Below are positions 5,267 to 31,638 of a stretch of DNA of 64,000 bases, one piece after another. Within the stretch, counting starts at the first letter, position 1. Each line of letters opens with the position of its first letter. The DNA is from an uncultured archaeon (GTDB lineage: Archaea; Asgardarchaeota; Lokiarchaeia; Sigyniarchaeales; SOKP01), in contig CAZALK010000001.1 in NCBI GenBank assembly GCA_964486045.1, positions 552,242-616,241 on the forward strand, given 5' to 3'. A model generated the notes under the pieces. It did no database searches and was not told where the DNA came from. It saw only the letters and a list, made by a program, of their open reading frames with translations. Made by a program: the position numbers and the translations under genes.

Positions 5267-6718
5267 TTATTCTAAATTTTCATCTGCCTTGATGTGATTG
5301 TTTTGTACATAAATGGTTTCTAGGTTAGGTAGAACTTTAGTTTTCAGTATGTTGATTTGGTCTAAAAATCCCTTTCTCAGCTTAAATATTTCTTTATTAA
5401 TAACCAAAGTAGGGTTAACTGAAGTATAGGATCCATTAGTTGCTGAAATCCACTCCCTTTGATTTAATTTTTTAAGAGCATCTCTAACAATTTCTTTTTC
5501 AGTTTTCATTACATTACTCAATGTTGATTCACTAGCAATTCCTAATGATAAAAGAGTTGTGTAGGTTCTTATTTCAGGATCAGAAACGTTTAGAAATTGC
5601 ATATCCTTTAATATAGTTCCATCTATTTGTGTAATTCGCGTTTTTTTCCTCAGAGATTCTTTATCGATTTTTAAGATATCAATTTCATTAGAAGTAACGA
5701 TTTTTTTGGCCTTTACTATCTCATTAAAGATTTTTGCTCCTATTTCTGTTCGTACTACTACACTATTCCACTCGTTTTTAGGTACACCTACGCTTCCTAC
5801 AGATATATCAGCAATTTCAGCACTAAAATCTTTGCAATATTGACAACTTTCCCATGTATATTTCTTAATTTCCTTTAATGGAACCTTTTTTATAGTATCA
5901 TCATTCAAATAGAGATAGAATTTACCGTGCGAAACATCCATTTTCTTCACGCTAATTAGTGGTATTCCAAGCTCTCCCTGGATAAAATTTGTCATTAAAT
6001 CATAAGAATAGTTTGAGAAGCAAAAAAGTCCTATTATTAAGGTAAACTTCCCATATTCTTTTGAAAGAGGTGAGAACAATTGTAATTTTCTTACTGCATG
6101 AATTTGGCAAGGCATCCCAACAAATGCTAATTTTTCTAGTTTAAACTCATTAATAGCATTGTTATAGCTGCTTAAAGTTGGGGCGATAGTATATTTAGAA
6201 CCCATACACGACATTATTTCATTTGCTGTTCTCGCGATTATGGGTTTTGGAAACCAATGATCATCTTTATCTGTAAGAAGAACTCCGTCTATTAATCCAG
6301 TATCTAGAGCATGAATGAGCAGTGAAGATACTACTCCCCCGTTTTGAGCAACTTTCAATATTACATCATCCGTAGTTTTTGCCGCAACTATGTTCTGATA
6401 ATACCCCAATGGAAACCTTTTTTTTACTTTATCCTTAAATAATTCTCGTTCAAATATCTCTGCAGGAAAATACGTCCTAGGACAGTACCTGAAGCAAGTA
6501 GAACATTCAGGATCATACTCTAATAGTGTAGGCTCATTTTCATTCATCCCTATACGAGGGCATAATGAATCACATGCCCCACACAACACACAATTTCCTT
6601 TACTTATCACATGGTTATGTAATTCTTGAAACCCAATTCCAAGAACATTTGATTCCAAATAATTTTTCAGCTGATTTCTTCCTTCCATTTGCTTTTCCTC
6701 TATTTTATCATTCCCCAT
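5267..6718 (-). CDS. F420 hydrogenase/dehydrogenase beta-subunit family protein with N-terminal ferredoxin and C-terminal TrmB-like winged HTH
   Basis: CVLCGACDSLCP / CSTCFRYCP; AQNGGVV, GSKY, VGMPCQ, IGLFC, CQYCKDF..E.ADISVG; extra ~115-aa HTH-like tail. Confidence 0.85.
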   Translation of the reverse strand: MGNDKIEEKQMEGRNQLKNYLESNVLGIGFQELHNHVISKGNCVLCGACDSLCPRIGMNENEPTLLEYDPECSTCFRYCPRTYFPAEIFERELFKDKVKKRFPLGYYQNIVAAKTTDDVILKVAQNGGVVSSLLIHALDTGLIDGVLLTDKDDHWFPKPIIARTANEIMSCMGSKYTIAPTLSSYNNAINEFKLEKLAFVGMPCQIHAVRKLQLFSPLSKEYGKFTLIIGLFCFSNYSYDLMTNFIQGELGIPLISVKKMDVSHGKFYLYLNDDTIKKVPLKEIKKYTWESCQYCKDFSAEIADISVGSVGVPKNEWNSVVVRTEIGAKIFNEIVKAKKIVTSNEIDILKIDKESLRKKTRITQIDGTILKDMQFLNVSDPEIRTYTTLLSLGIASESTLSNVMKTEKEIVRDALKKLNQREWISATNGSYTSVNPTLVINKEIFKLRKGFLDQINILKTKVLPNLETIYVQNNHIKADENLE

Positions 6719-6763
6719 GTTTCATCACTATACACTCTAATTGCGTTACCTCTCCGTGAATAG

Positions 6764-6824
6764 CCTTTTCTAATAATAATCATGTTCTAAGCGAACACAT
6801 CCGTGAAGCATTTATTAGAAAAGG
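6764..6824. promoter_or_regulatory. 13-bp perfect inverted repeat upstream of the FrhB-HTH gene
   Basis: CCTTTTCTAATAA (6764-6776) / TTATTAGAAAAGG (6812-6824) enclosing inner hairpin GTTC-taagc-GAAC. Confidence 0.6.
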
Positions 6825-7169
6825 TTAGGCGGAAGTGTATCGCTTATAAAATCAATACTACTACGATAATACTAATTAAGGATAAAAATCCCCTCGTCAG
6901 TATTTTTGAAGCAGTATGATTTGAGTTCATAATTATATGATAATATCTTTTGAACATTTATAAACTTTTAGTTCATGTTTCAAAAGGAAATTACAGTATG
7001 GCTTGAAAATTCAATAATTAAACAATTTATTGACTAGACAAGGTTCCCTACTTGGTTATTATTGTTGTTGATAGAAATGTAAAAATTTAAATTTATAGCT
7101 GTAAATTTTTATTATACTATTAGTTTTTTACAAATTTGTAAAATAAAGAATTAAAGAGAGTGAAAAAAC

Positions 7170-7490
7170 ATGTATATATTAATAACCGTATGGTTCCCCG
7201 CTAGCAAAGCAGTTGAGGTTGGAAAAAAAGCACTTGAGATTATGGAAAAACTTCCGCAAGACGAGATGATCTCAAAGACAATTCTACCCGGGGGCTTAAT
7301 GAGAACCAAAAATGGAACAAAAGGAATCGCGGTTTATGAAGTTATGGAAGGTAAATTCGAGGAAGCCTTTAACCGAGCTAGTGAAATTCTAGCCCTTTAC
7401 GCAGAAGTGGAAGGATTGAATAGTAGAATAGACACTATGACAACAGCCGCAGAAGCTTTGGAAACCACAGGTCTTGCGATACCTGCCTAA
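7170..7490 (+). CDS. small hypothetical protein
   Basis: Clean ORF, GTGA-type RBS upstream, T-rich terminator downstream. Confidence 0.8.
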   Translation: MYILITVWFPASKAVEVGKKALEIMEKLPQDEMISKTILPGGLMRTKNGTKGIAVYEVMEGKFEEAFNRASEILALYAEVEGLNSRIDTMTTAAEALETTGLAIPA

Positions 7491-7608
7491 TAATTGAAAA
7501 ATTATTTTTTTCAATCTTTTGTTTTATTTTTATCATATCTCTTAAAGAAAACTTAGGAAACAACTTAGGAAAAAAATTATATCACATGTAAATCTTCAAA
7601 TTTTTGAG

Positions 7609-7992
7609 TTATTCATTTCCCAAAACGGCACGGGCTTTTTCCATGTTATCGACTCCGAGGACTAACTTATTGTTCTCGGCAAAATAGATTAGATCAATAT
7701 TAACACCAGTATCACCTATTTTACGAGCTATCTTGCCACCTGTCCCTGGTTTTCCTGCAATATTTCCAACATCAATAACGATGACTTCACGAACCGCCCG
7801 TACTTCGAAACCAGCTGCTTCCAGTACCCATTTGGTCGTGGTTTCATCTTCTACTAATATATGAATGATGGCTTCCTCTTTTAGAGGAAAACCGCAAATA
7901 CCTTCCATATTGATGTTATTTTTCCCCAAAATTTCCCCCATATCAGCTAATATACCCGGTTGATTTTTCAAAACAACAGTCATATCTTTCAT
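7609..7992 (-). CDS. tandem ACT-domain (amino-acid-binding) protein
   Basis: NQPGILA..LGKNNINME and KPG..GKIA..IGD.GVNID.IY; GGAGG RBS. Confidence 0.9.
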   Translation of the reverse strand: MKDMTVVLKNQPGILADMGEILGKNNINMEGICGFPLKEEAIIHILVEDETTTKWVLEAAGFEVRAVREVIVIDVGNIAGKPGTGGKIARKIGDTGVNIDLIYFAENNKLVLGVDNMEKARAVLGNE

Positions 7993-8225
7993 TATTTTAT
8001 TCCTCCTTTTCCTGCTTATTTATTTCTTATTTCATTTATAATTTCATTGTCACGAGAATTTCTTCCAATACATAATTATGTCTTTTCCCTTTTTAAGCTT
8101 TCTTTTAAATTTTATTTTATCTTAAATAAAGATAAGTAGGTATTCATAATCATCCTTACTTTTCTACATCTCAACAAACCGATACCCCCTATTTATTTTT
8201 TTTCACATATCGCACAGAATAAGTC

Positions 8226-9413
8226 TCAGATTATTAAAAAAAACCAATATAGCCCTAGTAATATTATAAAAGAAATAAGGATTGGTTTACCTAATAGTTT
8301 TATGACGCTAAAGAAATCTGCCTCAAAATATTCAATACTATAGGCAACACAAGGGTGAATAGGGGTAATTAGATACCCTAAAGAAATTGAAGTGTAGATA
8401 AAAATGAAATCTAAGAGTGGCATTGTATTACCAGTAAATTGTGCTATGTATATAGGAATTAAGATTGAAACGGGTAATTGAATACGTCCTGTTGCAAACC
8501 CAAGAAAAAAGCCAAGTAATATTAAAAGAAAAACTGATAAATCTAATGCAGCAATTTCCTCAGGGGCACCGGAGAGAACAAATACTTCTAAAAATATGAA
8601 CATAGAAAAAATTATTAGTGGGAATCGCCAAATTTTCATTTTTTTTGATATTTGTTTCACATTTGATAGCTTCATCTTCCCGAACCGTAAAGCTATCCAA
8701 ATGCTAAAAACAAGACCAATAAGGAGGATTATTTCTGGAACGGCGATATCAAAAAAAGTCCTCCCGATAAAATCAATTATTGGAGCAATCAAAATTGGAA
8801 GTAAATTATGAAATGCCCCTTTAAGATCCCTTTCCCCTTGTTCTGAGAAAGGAGAAATATTTTTGACCAGAGTAATGTACCCTATTAACCACATTACAAT
8901 TAGACCTGGTAACAACCCAAGTACAAGTATATAGAGATTAATATTAGTGAGAAAACTGGCTATAATTAATGAAGATGATAAGGGATAAATTATCAGCAAT
9001 ATGTGTCTATACCACACATTGATTGAGACTTTCTTGTTAGCATCCGCTTCAGGATCAATCTGTTGGACAATAGGTGCTGACATTAAGGCTCCCCCGGGTA
9101 CGGGTAATAACCCAAACAAAGCTGGTATCATCATTATAGAGGATTTCCGAGATATTCGCATTTTTCGAATCATCCCCATCATCAATCCCGATTCTTCCAT
9201 GATCCCTCCCAGAATTGGAATAAGGGTCATAATTATCATTAATGACAAAATTGAAGGATCTGTTAGCACGTTTATTAATGATTGTAAAATATTAACCCCC
9301 GCCAAAATAGCAAACCCTACGGCTCCTAAAGTTAATACTATACCTAATTCATACTTGGAAAGAGCCATAACTATGCCAATAATGATGATAAAACTTAACC
9401 AAGCTTGTAACAT
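8226..9413 (-). CDS. DUF401-family multi-pass membrane protein (IT-superfamily-like transporter)
   Basis: PALFGLLPVPGGALMSAP, INVWYRH, TPIHPC. Confidence 0.85.
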   Translation of the reverse strand: MLQAWLSFIIIIGIVMALSKYELGIVLTLGAVGFAILAGVNILQSLINVLTDPSILSLMIIMTLIPILGGIMEESGLMMGMIRKMRISRKSSIMMIPALFGLLPVPGGALMSAPIVQQIDPEADANKKVSINVWYRHILLIIYPLSSSLIIASFLTNINLYILVLGLLPGLIVMWLIGYITLVKNISPFSEQGERDLKGAFHNLLPILIAPIIDFIGRTFFDIAVPEIILLIGLVFSIWIALRFGKMKLSNVKQISKKMKIWRFPLIIFSMFIFLEVFVLSGAPEEIAALDLSVFLLILLGFFLGFATGRIQLPVSILIPIYIAQFTGNTMPLLDFIFIYTSISLGYLITPIHPCVAYSIEYFEADFFSVIKLLGKPILISFIILLGLYWFFLII

Positions 9414-9604
9414 ATCTATGAAAGTTAACGGCTATGATATTTCTACAAAAGTATTCTTAAAAAAATAAATGAGTCAATAATTACTTTCTCCTAAACTAAA
9501 AAATATTATCGAAAAAAATTTTTAAAGTGTTTGTTTTATCAAGTTCTATCAAAGCTGCTACCCTATATAAAGTAATGTACAATTGCCCATTATTGATATG
9601 CTTT

Positions 9605-10042
9605 TTAAAAACAATACATAGGCTTTAGAAGATCATTATCTAACATACTAAATTCCTCGGGAGTAGCTCCATGCAGTAAGGCAAGATGCAGTAACTTCAT
9701 TTTTAAGTTTTCTAAAGGTATTATTCCTTTGTGTGTTTGAATCTCATTGAGTAAACTTTTTACCATTTCATTTACAGGGAAAAATGGGTCTCTAAGCATC
9801 CCAAAATATCCACCAAATGCTAAAAACATGTTCGCAATGAGATTAATATCTTCATCAGAATTTATCGAATAACAGTGAGTACAAATCACCTTGAAATGAA
9901 ATTCTTCAGAATAAAATGCATTTCCTTGCTTGATTTTCTTATGACAAATTCCACAACTCTCAAAATTATGGGATTCCCTTTCCAATTCTTTACTTCCAAT
10001 CATTTTATGATCACTCTCTTTTTTACATTTATTGTTAAACAA
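9605..10042 (-). CDS. hypothetical protein with CxxC...CxxC zinc finger
   Basis: CGIC...ICTHC followed by FLAFGGYFG. Confidence 0.7.
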   Translation of the reverse strand: MFNNKCKKESDHKMIGSKELERESHNFESCGICHKKIKQGNAFYSEEFHFKVICTHCYSINSDEDINLIANMFLAFGGYFGMLRDPFFPVNEMVKSLLNEIQTHKGIIPLENLKMKLLHLALLHGATPEEFSMLDNDLLKPMYCF

Positions 10043-10205
10043 AGATCTATTTTATAGTTTCATTCTCGAAACTTTCCTTAAACTTTTAGATTTCTTTTAG
10101 ATTTCTTTAAAGGACTCAAATTCATCATTTCCAACCGTCAAGATTAAATTATGTTTAATTTCTAAAATTCTAAAATTTTAAAAGCTTAAAAAAAAAGAAT
10201 CTCAT

Positions 10206-10535
10206 ATGATAGCTAAAATCAATTTGGAGAGAAAAATTAAAGAGATTAACGGAAAACCATGGTCACCTATAGATATTACTCAGATAAATGACCAAGTAGT
10301 GAGATTGGCTCTAGTAAAAGGAGAATTTCATTGGCATAAGCACACAGATGAAGATGAACTTTTTTATGTTTTAAAAGGAAAAATCATTATCCAGCTAAAA
10401 GATCAACCCAATATAAATCTGAGTAAAGGAGAAATGGTAGTTATTCCCAAAGGAGTTGATCATTGCCCAAAAAGCTCAGAACCTTCTTATGTGTTATTAT
10501 TTGAACCATTAATTTTAAAAACTGCAGGAGATTAA
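10206..10535 (+). CDS. cupin domain protein
   Basis: GEFHWHKH.DEDELFYV..G; GEMVVIPKGVDHCP. Confidence 0.9.
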   Translation: MIAKINLERKIKEINGKPWSPIDITQINDQVVRLALVKGEFHWHKHTDEDELFYVLKGKIIIQLKDQPNINLSKGEMVVIPKGVDHCPKSSEPSYVLLFEPLILKTAGD

Positions 10536-18368: not shown

Positions 18369-18489
18369 TATGCTCCTCTTTCGACAGCCATACACTCGTG
18401 CTGTTGAGAGTAGCGGGCTGAATAGGTCGCCCGTAAGCTCCCTACGTACACCCCTACCTCACCAACCCCGTCTTTTACGGGGGCACTCG

Positions 18490-18722
18490 TCTCGATTCCG
18501 CAGTTCACGTCACCGCGCCCTGCTCTCGTTATCAACGCTTATAACCCATTACAATTATGGCTTTATACTACATGCTTTTGGCAAAGCTCAATCATCAAGG
18601 TCTCCCCCAATAATTTAAACTTCACCTCTACACTCCGAACTGACTTCCGGCTTTCACAGGACTGCCTTGTCAATTCAACCAACTGCAATACGCTAAAAAG
18701 CGCCTAACATTATTGATCGAGA
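18490..18722 (-). other. 23S expansion segment ES39 (H98 region), ~233 nt
   Basis: Long insertion closed by UCUCGAU/AUCGAGA between conserved H97 and H99 regions. Confidence 0.8.
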
Positions 18723-18977
18723 TTGGCTGACTATTTTCGGGTCCGGCTTCGTGCTTAGATGCTTTCAGCACTTATCCGTTAGCGCGTGGCTGCCCAGCAA
18801 TACCTTGTCAGATAACTGGTACACTAGTGGCGCCGGCAAAATGTTCCTCTCGTACTGATTTTCCCTTACCCTCAGTCAACCTACAAGCCCAGCAGATAGA
18901 ATCCGACCTGACTCACGTCGGTCTGAACCCAGCTCACGTTCCCTTTTAATGGGCGTACAGCCCCACCCTTGGAAGTT

Positions 18978-19020
18978 GTGCACCCGGCATTAAAACCGTT
19001 TTAACGGCCCCAAAACCGGT
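18978..19020 (-). other. 43-nt insertion in H91 loop of 23S; probable BHB/BHL intron
   Basis: GGGAG-C-GCAC-[AUA]-CCGG...CCGG-GUGC-[ACA]-A-CUUCC. Confidence 0.65.
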
Positions 19021-19629
19021 ATGTGCGCTCCCAGGATAGGAAGAGCCGACATCGAGGAAGCAAGCCACGAGGTCGATAGGAACTCTTGCTCGTGACAACT
19101 CTGTTACCCCCGGGGTAATTTTTCTATCACCTTAACCACCCACACGAGGTTAGTTAAGGATCGCTAGACCAGGCGTTAGCCTCAGGATTCCTTGGTGATC
19201 AGAATCCAGTCAGACCAGCTTTTGCTCTTAAACTCTTCAGCGGATTCCTGACCCGCTTGAGCTGATCATTGGTTACTCTAGATATTTTTTCTAGAGTGAG
19301 CCGCCCCAGCCAAACTGCCCACCTGCGGATGTCCAACACGTTTTGTGCCGTTAGCGATTTCAGAAAGGAAGGCCGGTATTCCATTTGTGCTCCACCGTGA
19401 CCGAAATCACGGCATCTCCGCTACCGACTATACTCTGCATTCAGTCCAAAACCGCAACAACAGGCTGCAGTAAAACTCCACGGGGTCTACTCGTCCCGCT
19501 GGGCTTCTCCGGTCCGTTCGCCGGAGTGTAATTTCAATCGTCAGAAGGCTGGGACAATGGGGAGAACGTTGGACCATTCATGCACGTCTGAACTTACCAG
19601 ACAAGGCATTTGGCTACCTTAAGAGAGTT

Positions 19630-19686
19630 CTAACTCCGTCTGTCGGAATGACGCGATTTACGCTATTGGAATGATGATAAGACGGT
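19630..19686 (-). other. 57-nt BHB intron in H69 loop of 23S (after E. coli U1917)
   Basis: GGGAGU-AACU-[AUA]-CCGUC...GACGG-AGUU-[AGA]-ACUCUC; excision restores GGGAGUAACUAUAACUCUCUUAAGG. Confidence 0.9.
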
Positions 19687-21002
19687 ATAGTTACTCCCGG
19701 CGTTTAGCAGGACTTACTCTGGTTGTAACCAGGATTTATCAAACTGCCACTGGCCAGGTTTCAGCTTCTGTAAAAAAGCTTTCGCTCTATCAGAAACCTA
19801 TGTTTTTGTTAAACAGTCGTCCCCCCCTAGTTATTGCAACTTGTGAGCCCCTTCACACTACCGAAGTTGCGTGAAGAAGTTCGCAAGCAAGCCTTCTCCC
19901 AAAGTTACGGCTCTAAATTGTCGATTTCCCTAGCCTCCTTTACACGAATACGCCTTAGGCTACTCACCTAGGGGCACCTGTGTCGGTTCTGGGTACGATC
20001 ACGGCATTTCTTGTTGATGTATTTTTATTAAGTCCTGGACTCAGCGGAGCCTTCCACAATTGGATGGTTATTCATGCTTTGAGCTGGGTCTAAGATTTAC
20101 TCTATTCACCAGCTTTATACATTTAAATAGGGAGATATTCGACGACCCTATTCTACTTATCCGGAACTGTCTACATACAACCATGCGTCACCGCTATTCG
20201 TAGTGCCGTGGTACAGGAATATAAACCTGTTTCCCTTTCGCGCGTACCAGTTAAGGGTGCGCTTAGGATCGACTAACTCTTCGCTGACGACGCGTTGCAA
20301 AGAAACCCTTGCCCTTTCGGCGGATGGGATTCTAACCCATCTATGCTTTTACTATTACCAGGATTTTCACTCCGAAGCGGTCCACAGGAACTCACGCACC
20401 TGCTTCAGCCCACTCCGGACGCTCCCCTACCAGATCACGGGGTTCTTCCGCCCGTGCTCTTGGGTCTCGGTGGCAGATTTAAGCCCCGTCCATTTTCGGG
20501 GCTATATTTCTCGGCAAATGAGTTGTTACACACTCGTTAGGGAATGGCTACTTCTATACCTATCCTTTTGCTGTTTTAGAAATATAACGCCCTTTCGTTT
20601 AACACTTAACCTGCACTTAGGGACCTTAACCCAAGTCTAGGTTGTTCCCTTCTCGGCGATGGACTTTACGCCCACCAACCCGTTTCCCAGAGTCTACAGT
20701 GCCAGCAAATTCGGAGTTTAAGAGCGAGGAGAGGAATTCCTTCCCCTTACCACACAATTAGTGCTCTACGTCACTGGCGACTTCGTCTGAGACTTGGCTG
20801 ACACCAACTTCGGGGAGAACCAGCTATCACCGATCTAGATTAGCCTTTTGCTCCTATTCCCAGTTCATCCAAGAGAATTGTACATCATCACTGGTGCAGA
20901 CCTCCATCGCCCTTTCGAACGACTTCATCTTGACCAGGAATAGATCGACCGGCTTCGGGTTTTACAGCAGAAACTTTTGGCCCTTTTAGACCATTCTTCT
21001 GG

Positions 21003-21089
21003 CCTAACTCCTTAGTAGGATTCGCTAAACGTTATCAGAGTGGCAAAACCACGCGTCAACGAGTAAACCTTCCTAATGTGATAGTTAGG
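21003..21089 (-). other. 23S expansion segment ES9 (H30 region), ~87 nt
   Basis: Insertion closed by CCUAACU/AGUUAGG between GGGAAACC and GGUCUAAAAGGGC. Confidence 0.7.
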
Positions 21090-22462
21090 TTGCAAGAATA
21101 TTGGTTTCCCTATGCCTTCGTGGGTGATCCACTTAAGCTTGCTACTACTGTAAACTCCCTGGCCAATGATTCCAGACTGATGATGCAACCCTAGTCCTCT
21201 GTGCTTTGACATTCCGTCACCGGAACTCATTCGCGCAGAATCTATCCTTTCAGGCTGCATCCTTACTAAGCTATTTGGTTTCAAGCACTTTTCACGACCC
21301 TTCCGGGTTACTTTTCATCTTTCGCTCACGCTACTACTTCACTATCGGTCTTGGGTTATATTTAGATTTACCAGCGTGTATCTGGTACATTCATACGAGA
21401 AAACCATCCCGCATTACTCGGGAACTCTCGCAGCAACCTTCTAGATTTTTATTACGCGGCTATCACGCTCTATGGCTCAGCTTTCCAGGAGTATTCATAT
21501 TCTCTAGAGAGGTCGTACAAGGTCCACACACCACATTTCCACTAGGTTTCCCTAGGGATTCGGTTTGATCTATTCCGCTTTCGCTCGCCGTTACTAACGG
21601 AATCACTATTGTTTTCTTTTCCTCCTGATACTAAAATGTTTTACTTCTCAGGGTTCCCCTTCCCACGAGGGAATCTTGCGGATTATTTGGCCGCAAGTGG
21701 ATGTCCTATTCGAGGATCTCGGGGTCAACGTCTTCATGCGACTAGCCCGAGCTTATCGCAGCTTGTCACGCTCTTCATCGGTTCCCAAGCCAAGATATCC
21801 ACCAAATAGCGGAGGCGTATTGGCGTCTAGTTGAGGAAAGATTCAGATTGCTTGCCTAAGGGTTTGGCATATTCGGTATTAGTAAGTTTTTATAACTTTT
21901 TTTTATAAATTATTATCAATTCTGACGATTGATAAGAAGCCTTAAATAATATGGGGAGTATGTTCCTATGAGCATGATTTATCATGCTTGGCTTCGGTTT
22001 ACTTAGACCAACCAATGTGAAGGTCAGTTTAAGCACCCACATCCTGTGGCACCATCATTTTGACCGAGGTCTTTTCTGGTGTACTTCTGTGAGGCCTAAG
22101 CCGGCTATTGGCCATATTTCATCGACTATCGATGAGATGTTTTTCTAACCAATAACTTGTCGATGACGACAATTCAAATTTTTAAAAGCATTTAATGCCA
22201 TCGACGAAGTATAAGAGTAAATACTTGGTTAAAAATTTTATGGTCTAAACACATAAACATTAAAAGGCATTATGAAGATTCTGGGGTGTAATAATTAAAA
22301 GGTTTACTACACATTTATAAATCGAAGCAAAAAGGGAAATAAATTTGAATCAGAAAATTAAGGAAATTTGAAGTTTTGAATTCGAGAACGATTAATTATT
22401 AGCAGTAAGAAAAGACGAGTTTGAAGATATCGTGGTAATATTTATAAGAATTAGGGTGTAAA

Positions 22463-31360: not shown

Positions 31361-31485
31361 AGCGGGGTGGGCTAGCCTGGTTTATGCCGCAGGGCTCATA
31401 CCTTGATGAAGTGCGGAAAAACAAAAAATACCGTTCTTTAGAATGAGAAACCCTGAGATCGTTCGTTCAAATCGAACCCCCGCTA
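31361..31485 (+). tRNA. initiator tRNA-Met(CAU) with 49-nt intron at 37/38 (31401-31449)
   Basis: A1:U72 acceptor AGCGGGG/CCCCGCU, GGG/CCC anticodon stem, CU-CAU-A, central helix CUCA/UGAG. Confidence 0.92.
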
Positions 31486-31638
31486 CTAATAATTACTAAT
31501 AATATCCCTTGTCATTTTTTTCTCATTGATGTGATGAGGAATAATAAAAAAGAGGACTTTCATATTATACCCTTAATAAGTATTTCTAAATTATACGAAA
31601 TTTAATTTTTAACTATTAGCATTAGTAAGTGAATTAAA

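What the first reader, a model, noticed from the sequence alone, without database searches (positions are those of the whole stretch)
19630..19686. Perfect BHB intron in the H69 loop of an Asgard 23S rRNA
Seen: textbook bulge-helix-bulge; removing 57 nt exactly restores H69 (GGGAGUAACUAUAACUCUC), the intersubunit bridge B2a, so splicing must be obligatory. Archaeal rRNA introns are best known from Thermoproteota and DPANN. An ORF-less one in Asgard suggests past homing-intron invasion or intron seeding from tRNAs. It contains UCAUUCC twice.
Basis: partly seen in the sequence, partly recalled or inferred. Interest (0 to 1): 0.75.

Follow-up and report, generated by a model that had tools for sequence, protein, structure and literature searches.

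The report
Mini-intron in ribosomal helix 69 loop
The only large-subunit rRNA gene of this Asgard (Loki-type) archaeon carries a 57-base insert in the tip of helix 69, shaped exactly like the signal cut by the tRNA-splicing enzyme; it is a real but fairly ordinary small archaeal rRNA intron, at a site and in a lineage not described in the papers I could search.

Summary
The 23S rRNA gene (window 18384-21826, minus strand) has 57 extra bases at 19686-19630, in the loop of helix 69 between E. coli positions 1917 and 1918. The insert and its flanks form a strict bulge-helix-bulge (BHB) motif. Cutting after the second base of each bulge gives exactly the helix 69 sequence of intron-less genomes of the same genus.

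Seven other inserts of 29-46 nt, with different sequences, occupy the same site in a congener, nine metagenome contigs and one other MAG. All keep the BHB, and all four pairs of the inner helix show compensatory changes.

The genome has one 23S gene, two EndA paralogues and RtcB, so splicing is very probably needed for working ribosomes.

No ORF, no Rfam family and no second copy in the genome were found. A separate family of mini-introns, and one 1235-nt ORF-bearing intron, sits 10 nt downstream at the known L1927 hot spot in relatives.

This scan had already recorded BHB mini-introns in other Asgard 23S genes. I class this as a new member of a known kind, of moderate interest.

The parts
18384..21826 (-). 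23S rRNA gene (3443 nt), the only one in the genome
   Evidence: RF02540 at 2487 bits, model positions 1-2987. A whole-genome search finds one match.
19630..19686 (-). 57-nt ORF-less BHB intron between E. coli positions U1917 and A1918, in the helix 69 loop
   Evidence: cmscan insert. MAFFT insert against G047, G253, G041 and G032. Intron-less congeners carry the predicted spliced sequence.
19693..19698 (-). Outer helix h, 5' strand (GGGAGU); this is the helix 69 stem
   Evidence: Read from the sequence. 8 of 8 aligned sequences pair.
19689..19692 (-). Central 4-bp helix H, 5' strand (AACU; helix 69 loop bases 1912-1915)
19686..19688 (-). 5' bulge AU|A; predicted cut after U (19687)
   Evidence: The cut position is inferred from BHB geometry and from the intron-less alleles.
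19680..19685 (-). Inner helix h', 5' strand (CCGUCU)
   Evidence: Compensatory changes in all four aligned pairs.
19636..19641 (-). Inner helix h', 3' strand (AGACGG)
19632..19635 (-). Central helix H, 3' strand (AGUU, intronic)
19629..19631 (-). 3' bulge AG|A; predicted cut after G (19630)
19623..19628 (-). Outer helix h, 3' strand (ACUCUC)

Best explanation
This is a bulge-helix-bulge (archaeal, tRNA-type) intron in the pre-23S rRNA.

Proposed mechanism:
- The helix 69 stem serves as the outer helix.
- Loop bases 1912-1915 pair with four bases near the 3' end of the intron to form the 4-bp central helix.
- The two splice sites lie in 3-nt bulges on opposite strands.
- The splicing endonuclease EndA cuts after the second base of each bulge. 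This genome has one paralogue with the Tyr/His/Lys catalytic residues and one that seems to lack the His, which suggests an alpha-beta heterotetramer.
- RtcB joins the exons, restoring the universal helix 69 loop, and probably closes the 57-nt intron into a circle.

The geometry matches a canonical tRNA intron at position 37/38: a 7-base loop, with the intron between loop bases 6 and 7.

Shown: the anatomy, the exact boundaries, the intron-less alleles, the covariation, and the presence of the enzymes. Inferred: cleavage, ligation, circularisation, and the need for splicing.
For: - The insert lies exactly in the helix 69 loop.
- It forms a strict hBHBh' motif; 0 of 20000 shuffles match it, and the constrained fold is within 0.1 kcal/mol of the MFE.
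- Same-genus G001, G045 and G047 carry the predicted spliced sequence.
- Eight distinct inserts (29-57 nt) at the same site keep the motif. 95.5% of pair cells are paired against 37-55% when the partners are slid. All four h' pairs have changes on both sides, and 0 of 500 shuffles reach the covariation score.
- Presence is patchy on the 23S tree, with at least 4 changes of state.
- The genome has one 23S gene, two EndA homologues and one RtcB.
- A tRNA(CAU) in the same window has a 49-nt intron with the same loop geometry.
Against: - There is no RNA evidence.
- The 57-nt version was seen only in this assembly.
- A BHB shape at moderate stringency is common by chance. A genome-wide scan gave 8261 hits, against 8551 for the mirror-image control. 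The case therefore rests on the site, the exact restoration and the covariation, not on the shape alone.
- Three of the eight variants have an A.C mismatch in the central helix, and one has a weak inner helix.
Confidence: 0.88

Rival explanations
1. The insert is a retained expansion of the helix 69 loop: it is transcribed and kept in the mature ribosome.
For: Asgard 23S rRNAs do carry large expansion segments elsewhere (PMC7594248). This gene is about 400 nt longer than the model even without the insert.
Against: - The helix 69 loop is invariant in all intron-less relatives seen and forms intersubunit bridge B2a (PMC2602781).
- The insert is absent from congeners.
- Its sequence and length vary freely, while only the BHB-forming ends are kept.
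Confidence: 0.04
2. EndA cuts at the two bulges but the exons are not rejoined. This would leave a 23S rRNA fragmented at helix 69, as happens with bacterial intervening sequences.
For: Nothing in the DNA distinguishes ligation from no ligation.
Against: - RtcB is present.
- A nick in the helix 69 loop would sit in a functional bridge.
- Known archaeal BHB rRNA introns are described as spliced and ligated (PMC4496867, PMC3608112).
Confidence: 0.04
3. The insert is an assembly artefact, or the gene is a dead rRNA copy.
For: Several MAG contigs of relatives break within about 20 nt of helix 69.
Against: - The gene lies inside a large contig that also carries the 16S gene and rtcB.
- It scores 2487 bits end to end.
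- It is the only 23S gene in a genome scored 99% complete.
- An artefact would not make a perfect BHB, nor recur as related 30-31-nt forms in independent assemblies.
Confidence: 0.02

Closest known systems
Short (<50 nt) hairpin-forming BHB introns of Thermoproteales 16S rRNA genes (Jay & Inskeep 2015, PMC4496867)
   Same: ORF-less. Little more than a BHB plus a hairpin. Located in conserved rRNA loops. Patchy among relatives. Some lie a few bases from a homing-endonuclease intron site (S1205 next to S1213), as 1917 lies 10 nt from 1927.
   Different: Different gene (16S), different phylum (thermophilic Thermoproteota), different sites. The window's intron, at 57 nt, is somewhat longer than that class.
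Vdi141.L1927 of Vulcanisaeta distributa, a 586-bp BHB intron encoding the LAGLIDADG endonuclease I-Vdi141I (PMC2602781)
   Same: A BHB intron in the 23S rRNA, in the helix 69 region. The endonuclease's DNA target is given as bases 1915-1938, which includes the 1917/1918 site.
   Different: It lies 10 nt downstream (1927/1928) and carries an ORF. The window's intron has none.
Canonical archaeal tRNA intron at position 37/38
   Same: Same geometry: a 7-base loop on a stem, loop bases 1-4 forming the central helix with the intron, and the intron between loop bases 6 and 7. An example is in this window (tRNA-CAU, intron 31401-31449). Same enzymes.
   Different: The host is an rRNA hairpin, not a tRNA. 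There is no sequence similarity to any other locus of the genome.
[quoted passage not shown]
   Same: Introns in a 23S rRNA gene. From my memory only, not from a text I could read: they are small, of roughly this size, and ORF-less.
   Different: Thermoproteota. I could not read the paper, so their sizes, coding content and exact positions are not compared.

Membership tests
Archaeal bulge-helix-bulge (BHB) intron | [quoted passage not shown] | tested here: met
   AACU/AGUU with bulges AUA and AGA. 87.5% of central-helix cells are paired across 8 variants.
Archaeal bulge-helix-bulge (BHB) intron | Flanking helices h (exon) and h' (intron) | tested here: met
   h is 6 bp, the helix 69 stem. h' is 6 bp. 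All four aligned h' pairs show compensatory changes.
Archaeal bulge-helix-bulge (BHB) intron | Cutting in the bulges restores the conserved mature sequence | tested here: met
   The predicted product equals the helix 69 of intron-less G001, G045 and G047.
Archaeal bulge-helix-bulge (BHB) intron | The host encodes the splicing endonuclease and the RtcB ligase | tested here: met
   Two PF01974 matches (102 and 67 bits) and one PF01139 match (557 bits) in the window's own genome.
Archaeal bulge-helix-bulge (BHB) intron | Excision and exon ligation seen in RNA (spliced junction, circular intron) | not testable with these tools
Homing-endonuclease (LAGLIDADG) rRNA intron | An intron-encoded endonuclease ORF | tested here: not met
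   At 57 nt there is no room for an ORF. None of the 8 variants at this site exceeds 57 nt, but the scans that found them only admitted inserts of 28-58 nt. Among the 400 genomes, only those with odd match geometry were opened, and none showed a long insert at 1917/1918.
Group I intron | A catalytic core recognisable by Rfam models | tested here: not met
   Only the LSU model matches 19480-19900 at E <= 0.001. The insert is far too short.
rRNA expansion segment | Retained in the mature rRNA and shared across a lineage at a tolerant site | tested here: not met
   Absent from congeners, patchy on the tree, and located in an otherwise invariant loop. Retention in RNA was not testable.

The most novel reading that the evidence does not exclude
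The 1917/1918 site may be colonised repeatedly and independently because the helix 69 hairpin mimics an anticodon stem-loop. ORF-less mini-introns would then enter at the RNA level, for example by reversal of the EndA/RtcB reaction followed by copying back into DNA, rather than by homing endonucleases. If so, this site would be a natural reporter for how Asgard BHB introns spread. A weaker variant of the idea: an insert at 1917 breaks the 1915-1938 target of L1927-type endonucleases and so protects the gene from them.
Probability: 0.15. Interest if true: 0.75.

Novelty: new member of a known kind. Interest (0 to 1): 0.42.

Why it matters
Helix 69 is among the most conserved and functionally loaded hairpins of the ribosome: it forms bridge B2a and contacts the A- and P-site tRNAs. 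An intron in its loop means that this archaeon, with a single 23S gene, very probably depends on its tRNA-splicing enzymes to make any working ribosome.

The wider result is that the same site holds at least eight different mini-introns in at least four lineages. A second mini-intron family sits 10 nt away across Asgard archaea. Protein-spliced rRNA introns are therefore common in the closest prokaryotic relatives of eukaryotes, not only in thermophilic Thermoproteota.

A practical consequence is that such inserts break primer and probe sites. They may also contribute to the contig breaks seen near helix 69 in several MAGs.

Tried and rejected
- **Genome-wide BHB count.** I scanned for h >= 3, H = 4 and h' >= 5 pairs at 24-69 nt, against a mirror-image control. 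The result was 8261 against 8551 hits, so there is no excess. At this stringency the shape alone is uninformative, and the scan cannot confirm or deny the many mRNA introns noted by others in this genome.
- **Intron seeded from a tRNA intron or a repeat family.** blastn-short of the 57 nt against the whole genome gave only itself. A 17-nt match on C6 lies inside a repetitive stretch that looks protein-coding.
- **Nested or duplicated intron as an explanation for the two UCAUUCC copies.** No second BHB can be drawn, and a repeated 7-mer occurs in 4.4% of shuffles.
- **Guide RNA (C/D or H/ACA) in the intron.** No Rfam match at E <= 0.001, and no box motifs by eye.
- **G270 intron ORF.** Pfam and PDB sequence searches gave no hit. 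The LAGLIDADG call rests on two motifs read by eye.
- **ARAGORN.** Intron placements in this genome are unreliable, and the window tool found no tRNA at all.
- **Taxonomy of L065.** The relatives of its MAG have 0.3-1 Mb genomes and only 63-71% identical 23S. The contig's origin stays open.
- **Literature.** Kjems & Garrett 1991 (PMC50826) is not held.

Full report
**Observation.** The window holds one archaeal 23S rRNA gene on the minus strand, at 18384-21826. It is 3443 nt long against a 2987-position model and scores 2487 bits. A focused cmscan of 19480-19900 shows 58 bases where the model has one, inside the helix 69 loop. A MAFFT alignment with the 23S genes of G047, G041, G253 and G032 independently places a 57-nt insert starting at window 19686. 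Against the congener G047 it is the only difference longer than 13 nt.

**Anatomy.** The parse below is read on the RNA strand.
- The helix 69 stem GGGAGU/ACUCUC is the outer helix.
- Loop bases AACU pair with AGUU near the intron's 3' end to form the 4-bp central helix.
- AU|A and AG|A are the two 3-nt bulges on opposite strands.
- CCGUCU/AGACGG is the inner helix.

None of 20000 shuffles of the insert gives four central pairs plus six inner pairs in this register. The MFE fold finds the outer and inner helices. A fold constrained to the full BHB costs only 0.1 kcal/mol more, -19.9 against -20.0. The spliced product folds into a 6-bp stem with a 7-base loop.

**Intron-less alleles and relatives.** The window's genome (G000) has 5.18 Mb in 45 contigs. 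Its genus includes G043, whose contig is the GenBank record 'MAG: Promethearchaeota archaeon isolate 9R3_44'. That phylum belongs to the Asgard kingdom Promethearchaeati. Three congeners (G001, G045, G047) carry GGGAGTAACTATAACTCTC with no insert, which is exactly the predicted spliced sequence. So do most genomes of the family and order that cover the site.

G043 has a different 30-nt insert at the same position. An exact-flank pattern scan allowing 28-58 nt of insert found nine JGI metagenome contigs and two GTDB genome contigs. Together with the window this gives eight distinct inserts of 29, 30, 30, 31, 31, 34, 46 and 57 nt.

Seven of the eight show at least 3 of 4 central pairs and at least 4 inner pairs, which at most 4 of 20000 shuffles reach. 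The 34-nt one is weaker. On the alignment of the eight:
- 95.5% of pair cells are paired, against 37-55% when partners are slid by 1-3 columns.
- All four aligned inner-helix pairs have changes on both sides.
- No shuffle of 500 reaches the observed covariation score.

This comparative evidence supports a structure that is selected for, with everything except the BHB free to vary.

**Distribution.**
- On a tree of about 1.2 kb of flanking 23S sequence, the window groups with the three contigs carrying the 31-nt form (99 SH-aLRT) and then with G043 (93). One gain probably underlies this sub-clade, and the 57-nt form is a longer derivative there.
- The three contigs with the other 30-nt form sit inside a different genus next to an intron-less genome.
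- The 46-nt form lies in the family that appears to contain Prometheoarchaeum and Lokiarchaeum (single-contig genomes of 4.4 and 6.0 Mb, identified by size from memory, not tested).
- The 34-nt and 29-nt forms lie on distant branches.
- At least four changes of state are needed.
- The contig with the 34-nt form has a 4111-nt 23S and a 2180-nt 16S gene, so it is heavily interrupted.

**The neighbouring site.** Ten bases downstream, between 1927 and 1928, relatives carry another set of BHB mini-introns:
- G041 (30 nt), G202 and G203 (31 nt), G227 (29 nt);
- the small Odin-sized genomes G302 and G303 (29 nt), and G073 (50 nt);
- G270, with a 1235-nt intron that has the same BHB frame and a 370-aa ORF.

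The G270 ORF has two LAGLIDADG-like motifs by eye but no Pfam or PDB sequence hit. L1927 is a published archaeal intron site. Vdi141.L1927 encodes I-Vdi141I, whose DNA target is given as bases 1915-1938 (PMC2602781). Group I introns at LSU/1923 and LSU/1931 are also known in archaea (PMC6125680). No allele seen here has both a 1917 and a 1927 intron, but the sample is too small to read anything into that.

**Machinery and need for splicing.** The genome has one 23S gene, and one 16S gene 52 kb away on the same contig. It has one RtcB (557 bits) and two EndA homologues of 201 and 200 aa. The first EndA homologue shows the Tyr, His and Lys expected of a catalytic subunit. The second seems to lack the His. 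I read this by eye as an alpha-beta pair, the architecture that a 2026 preprint reports as consistent with what it finds in 44 of 60 Asgard genomes.

With a single gene and an insert in the bridge-B2a loop, splicing is very probably essential. This is inference.

**Geometry.** The helix 69 hairpin has a 7-base loop, and the intron lies between loop bases 6 and 7. A tRNA(CAU) gene in this same window (31361-31486) has a 49-nt intron at 31401-31449. It uses loop bases 32-35 (CUCA) paired to UGAG, with bulges UA|C and AA|A. This is the canonical 37/38 arrangement. The helix 69 intron is thus presented to the enzyme just as a canonical tRNA intron is. Whether that explains why the site is used repeatedly is speculation.

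**What it is not.**
- No ORF fits in 57 nt.
- No other Rfam family matches the region at E <= 0.001.
- No other copy or relative of the intron exists in the genome.
- The repeated heptamer is within chance.
- A genome-wide scan for moderately strict BHB shapes gave no excess over a mirror-image control. This shows that the shape alone is weak evidence and that the case rests on position, exact restoration and covariation.

**Known or new.** BHB introns in archaeal rRNA genes have been known since 1985. Short, ORF-less, hairpin-forming ones are described at seven 16S loci in Thermoproteales, one of them spreading by co-conversion with a neighbouring endonuclease intron (PMC4496867). In the papers I could search I found no BHB intron in the helix 69 loop and no description of BHB introns in Asgard rRNA genes. 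The Asgard expansion-segment paper mentions an analysis of introns without details.

Earlier notes of this scan already record mini-introns at 1927 in other Asgard 23S genes. They also record many candidate BHB introns in tRNA and protein-coding genes of this very genome; I did not test those.

**Verdict.** The intron is real. It is a new member, at a new site and in a new host lineage, of a known kind. Interest is moderate.

Noticed in passing
window 18978-19020 (minus strand): A 43-nt insert in the helix 91 loop of the same 23S gene can be drawn as a BHB (GCAC/GUGC, bulges AUA and ACA, inner CCGG/CCGG). It is missing from G032 of the neighbouring family (41 nt there). It is present, 13 nt shorter, in the congeners G047 and G041, and also in G253 with indels. 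It is therefore either an old fixed intron or an expansion, and the predicted product differs by 2 nt from G032's loop.
   Followed up: partly
L026 (G041), L034/L035 (G203/G202), L041 (G227), L078/L079 (G302/G303), L080 (G073): BHB mini-introns of 29-50 nt lie between 1927 and 1928, 10 nt downstream of the window's site. The central helix is CUCU paired to AGAG, GGGG or GGAG. They occur in several Asgard families, including the small Odin-sized genomes.
   Followed up: partly
L036:1453-2687 (G270), ORF 1556-2668: A 1235-nt BHB intron at 1927/1928 carries a 370-aa ORF with two LAGLIDADG-like motifs by eye. It has no Pfam or PDB sequence hit, so it may be a divergent homing endonuclease.
   Followed up: partly
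L057:1092-5202 and L060:705-2884, 6375-10485: A linked rRNA operon from estuarine-sediment metagenomes has a 4111-nt 23S and a 2180-nt 16S gene, about 1100 and 700 nt longer than the models. It must hold many inserts, one of them at 1917/1918.
   Followed up: no
L082 (G253) and L074 (G041): G253 has a 31-nt insert after the position matching window 19982. G041 has a 125-nt insert after the position matching window 18912. These may be further mini-introns in 23S genes of this family. G041 also holds a second, 4029-nt LSU match on another contig.
   Followed up: no
window 31361-31486 (plus strand): A tRNA(CAU) gene has a 49-nt canonical 37/38 BHB intron at 31401-31449. The window ARAGORN tool misses the gene, and command-line ARAGORN calls it tRNA-Ser(AGA) with a misplaced intron.
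   Followed up: partly
G000:C1:570625-574067 and 626407-627898: The single 23S and single 16S genes are 52 kb apart on the same strand, so the rRNA genes are unlinked. The 16S (1492 nt) has no large insert.
   Followed up: no
L004 start (G001), L003 end (G008), L051 start (G226): Contigs of several related MAGs begin or end within about 20 nt of the helix 69 loop. Assemblies may break here because populations mix intron-bearing and intron-less alleles.
   Followed up: no
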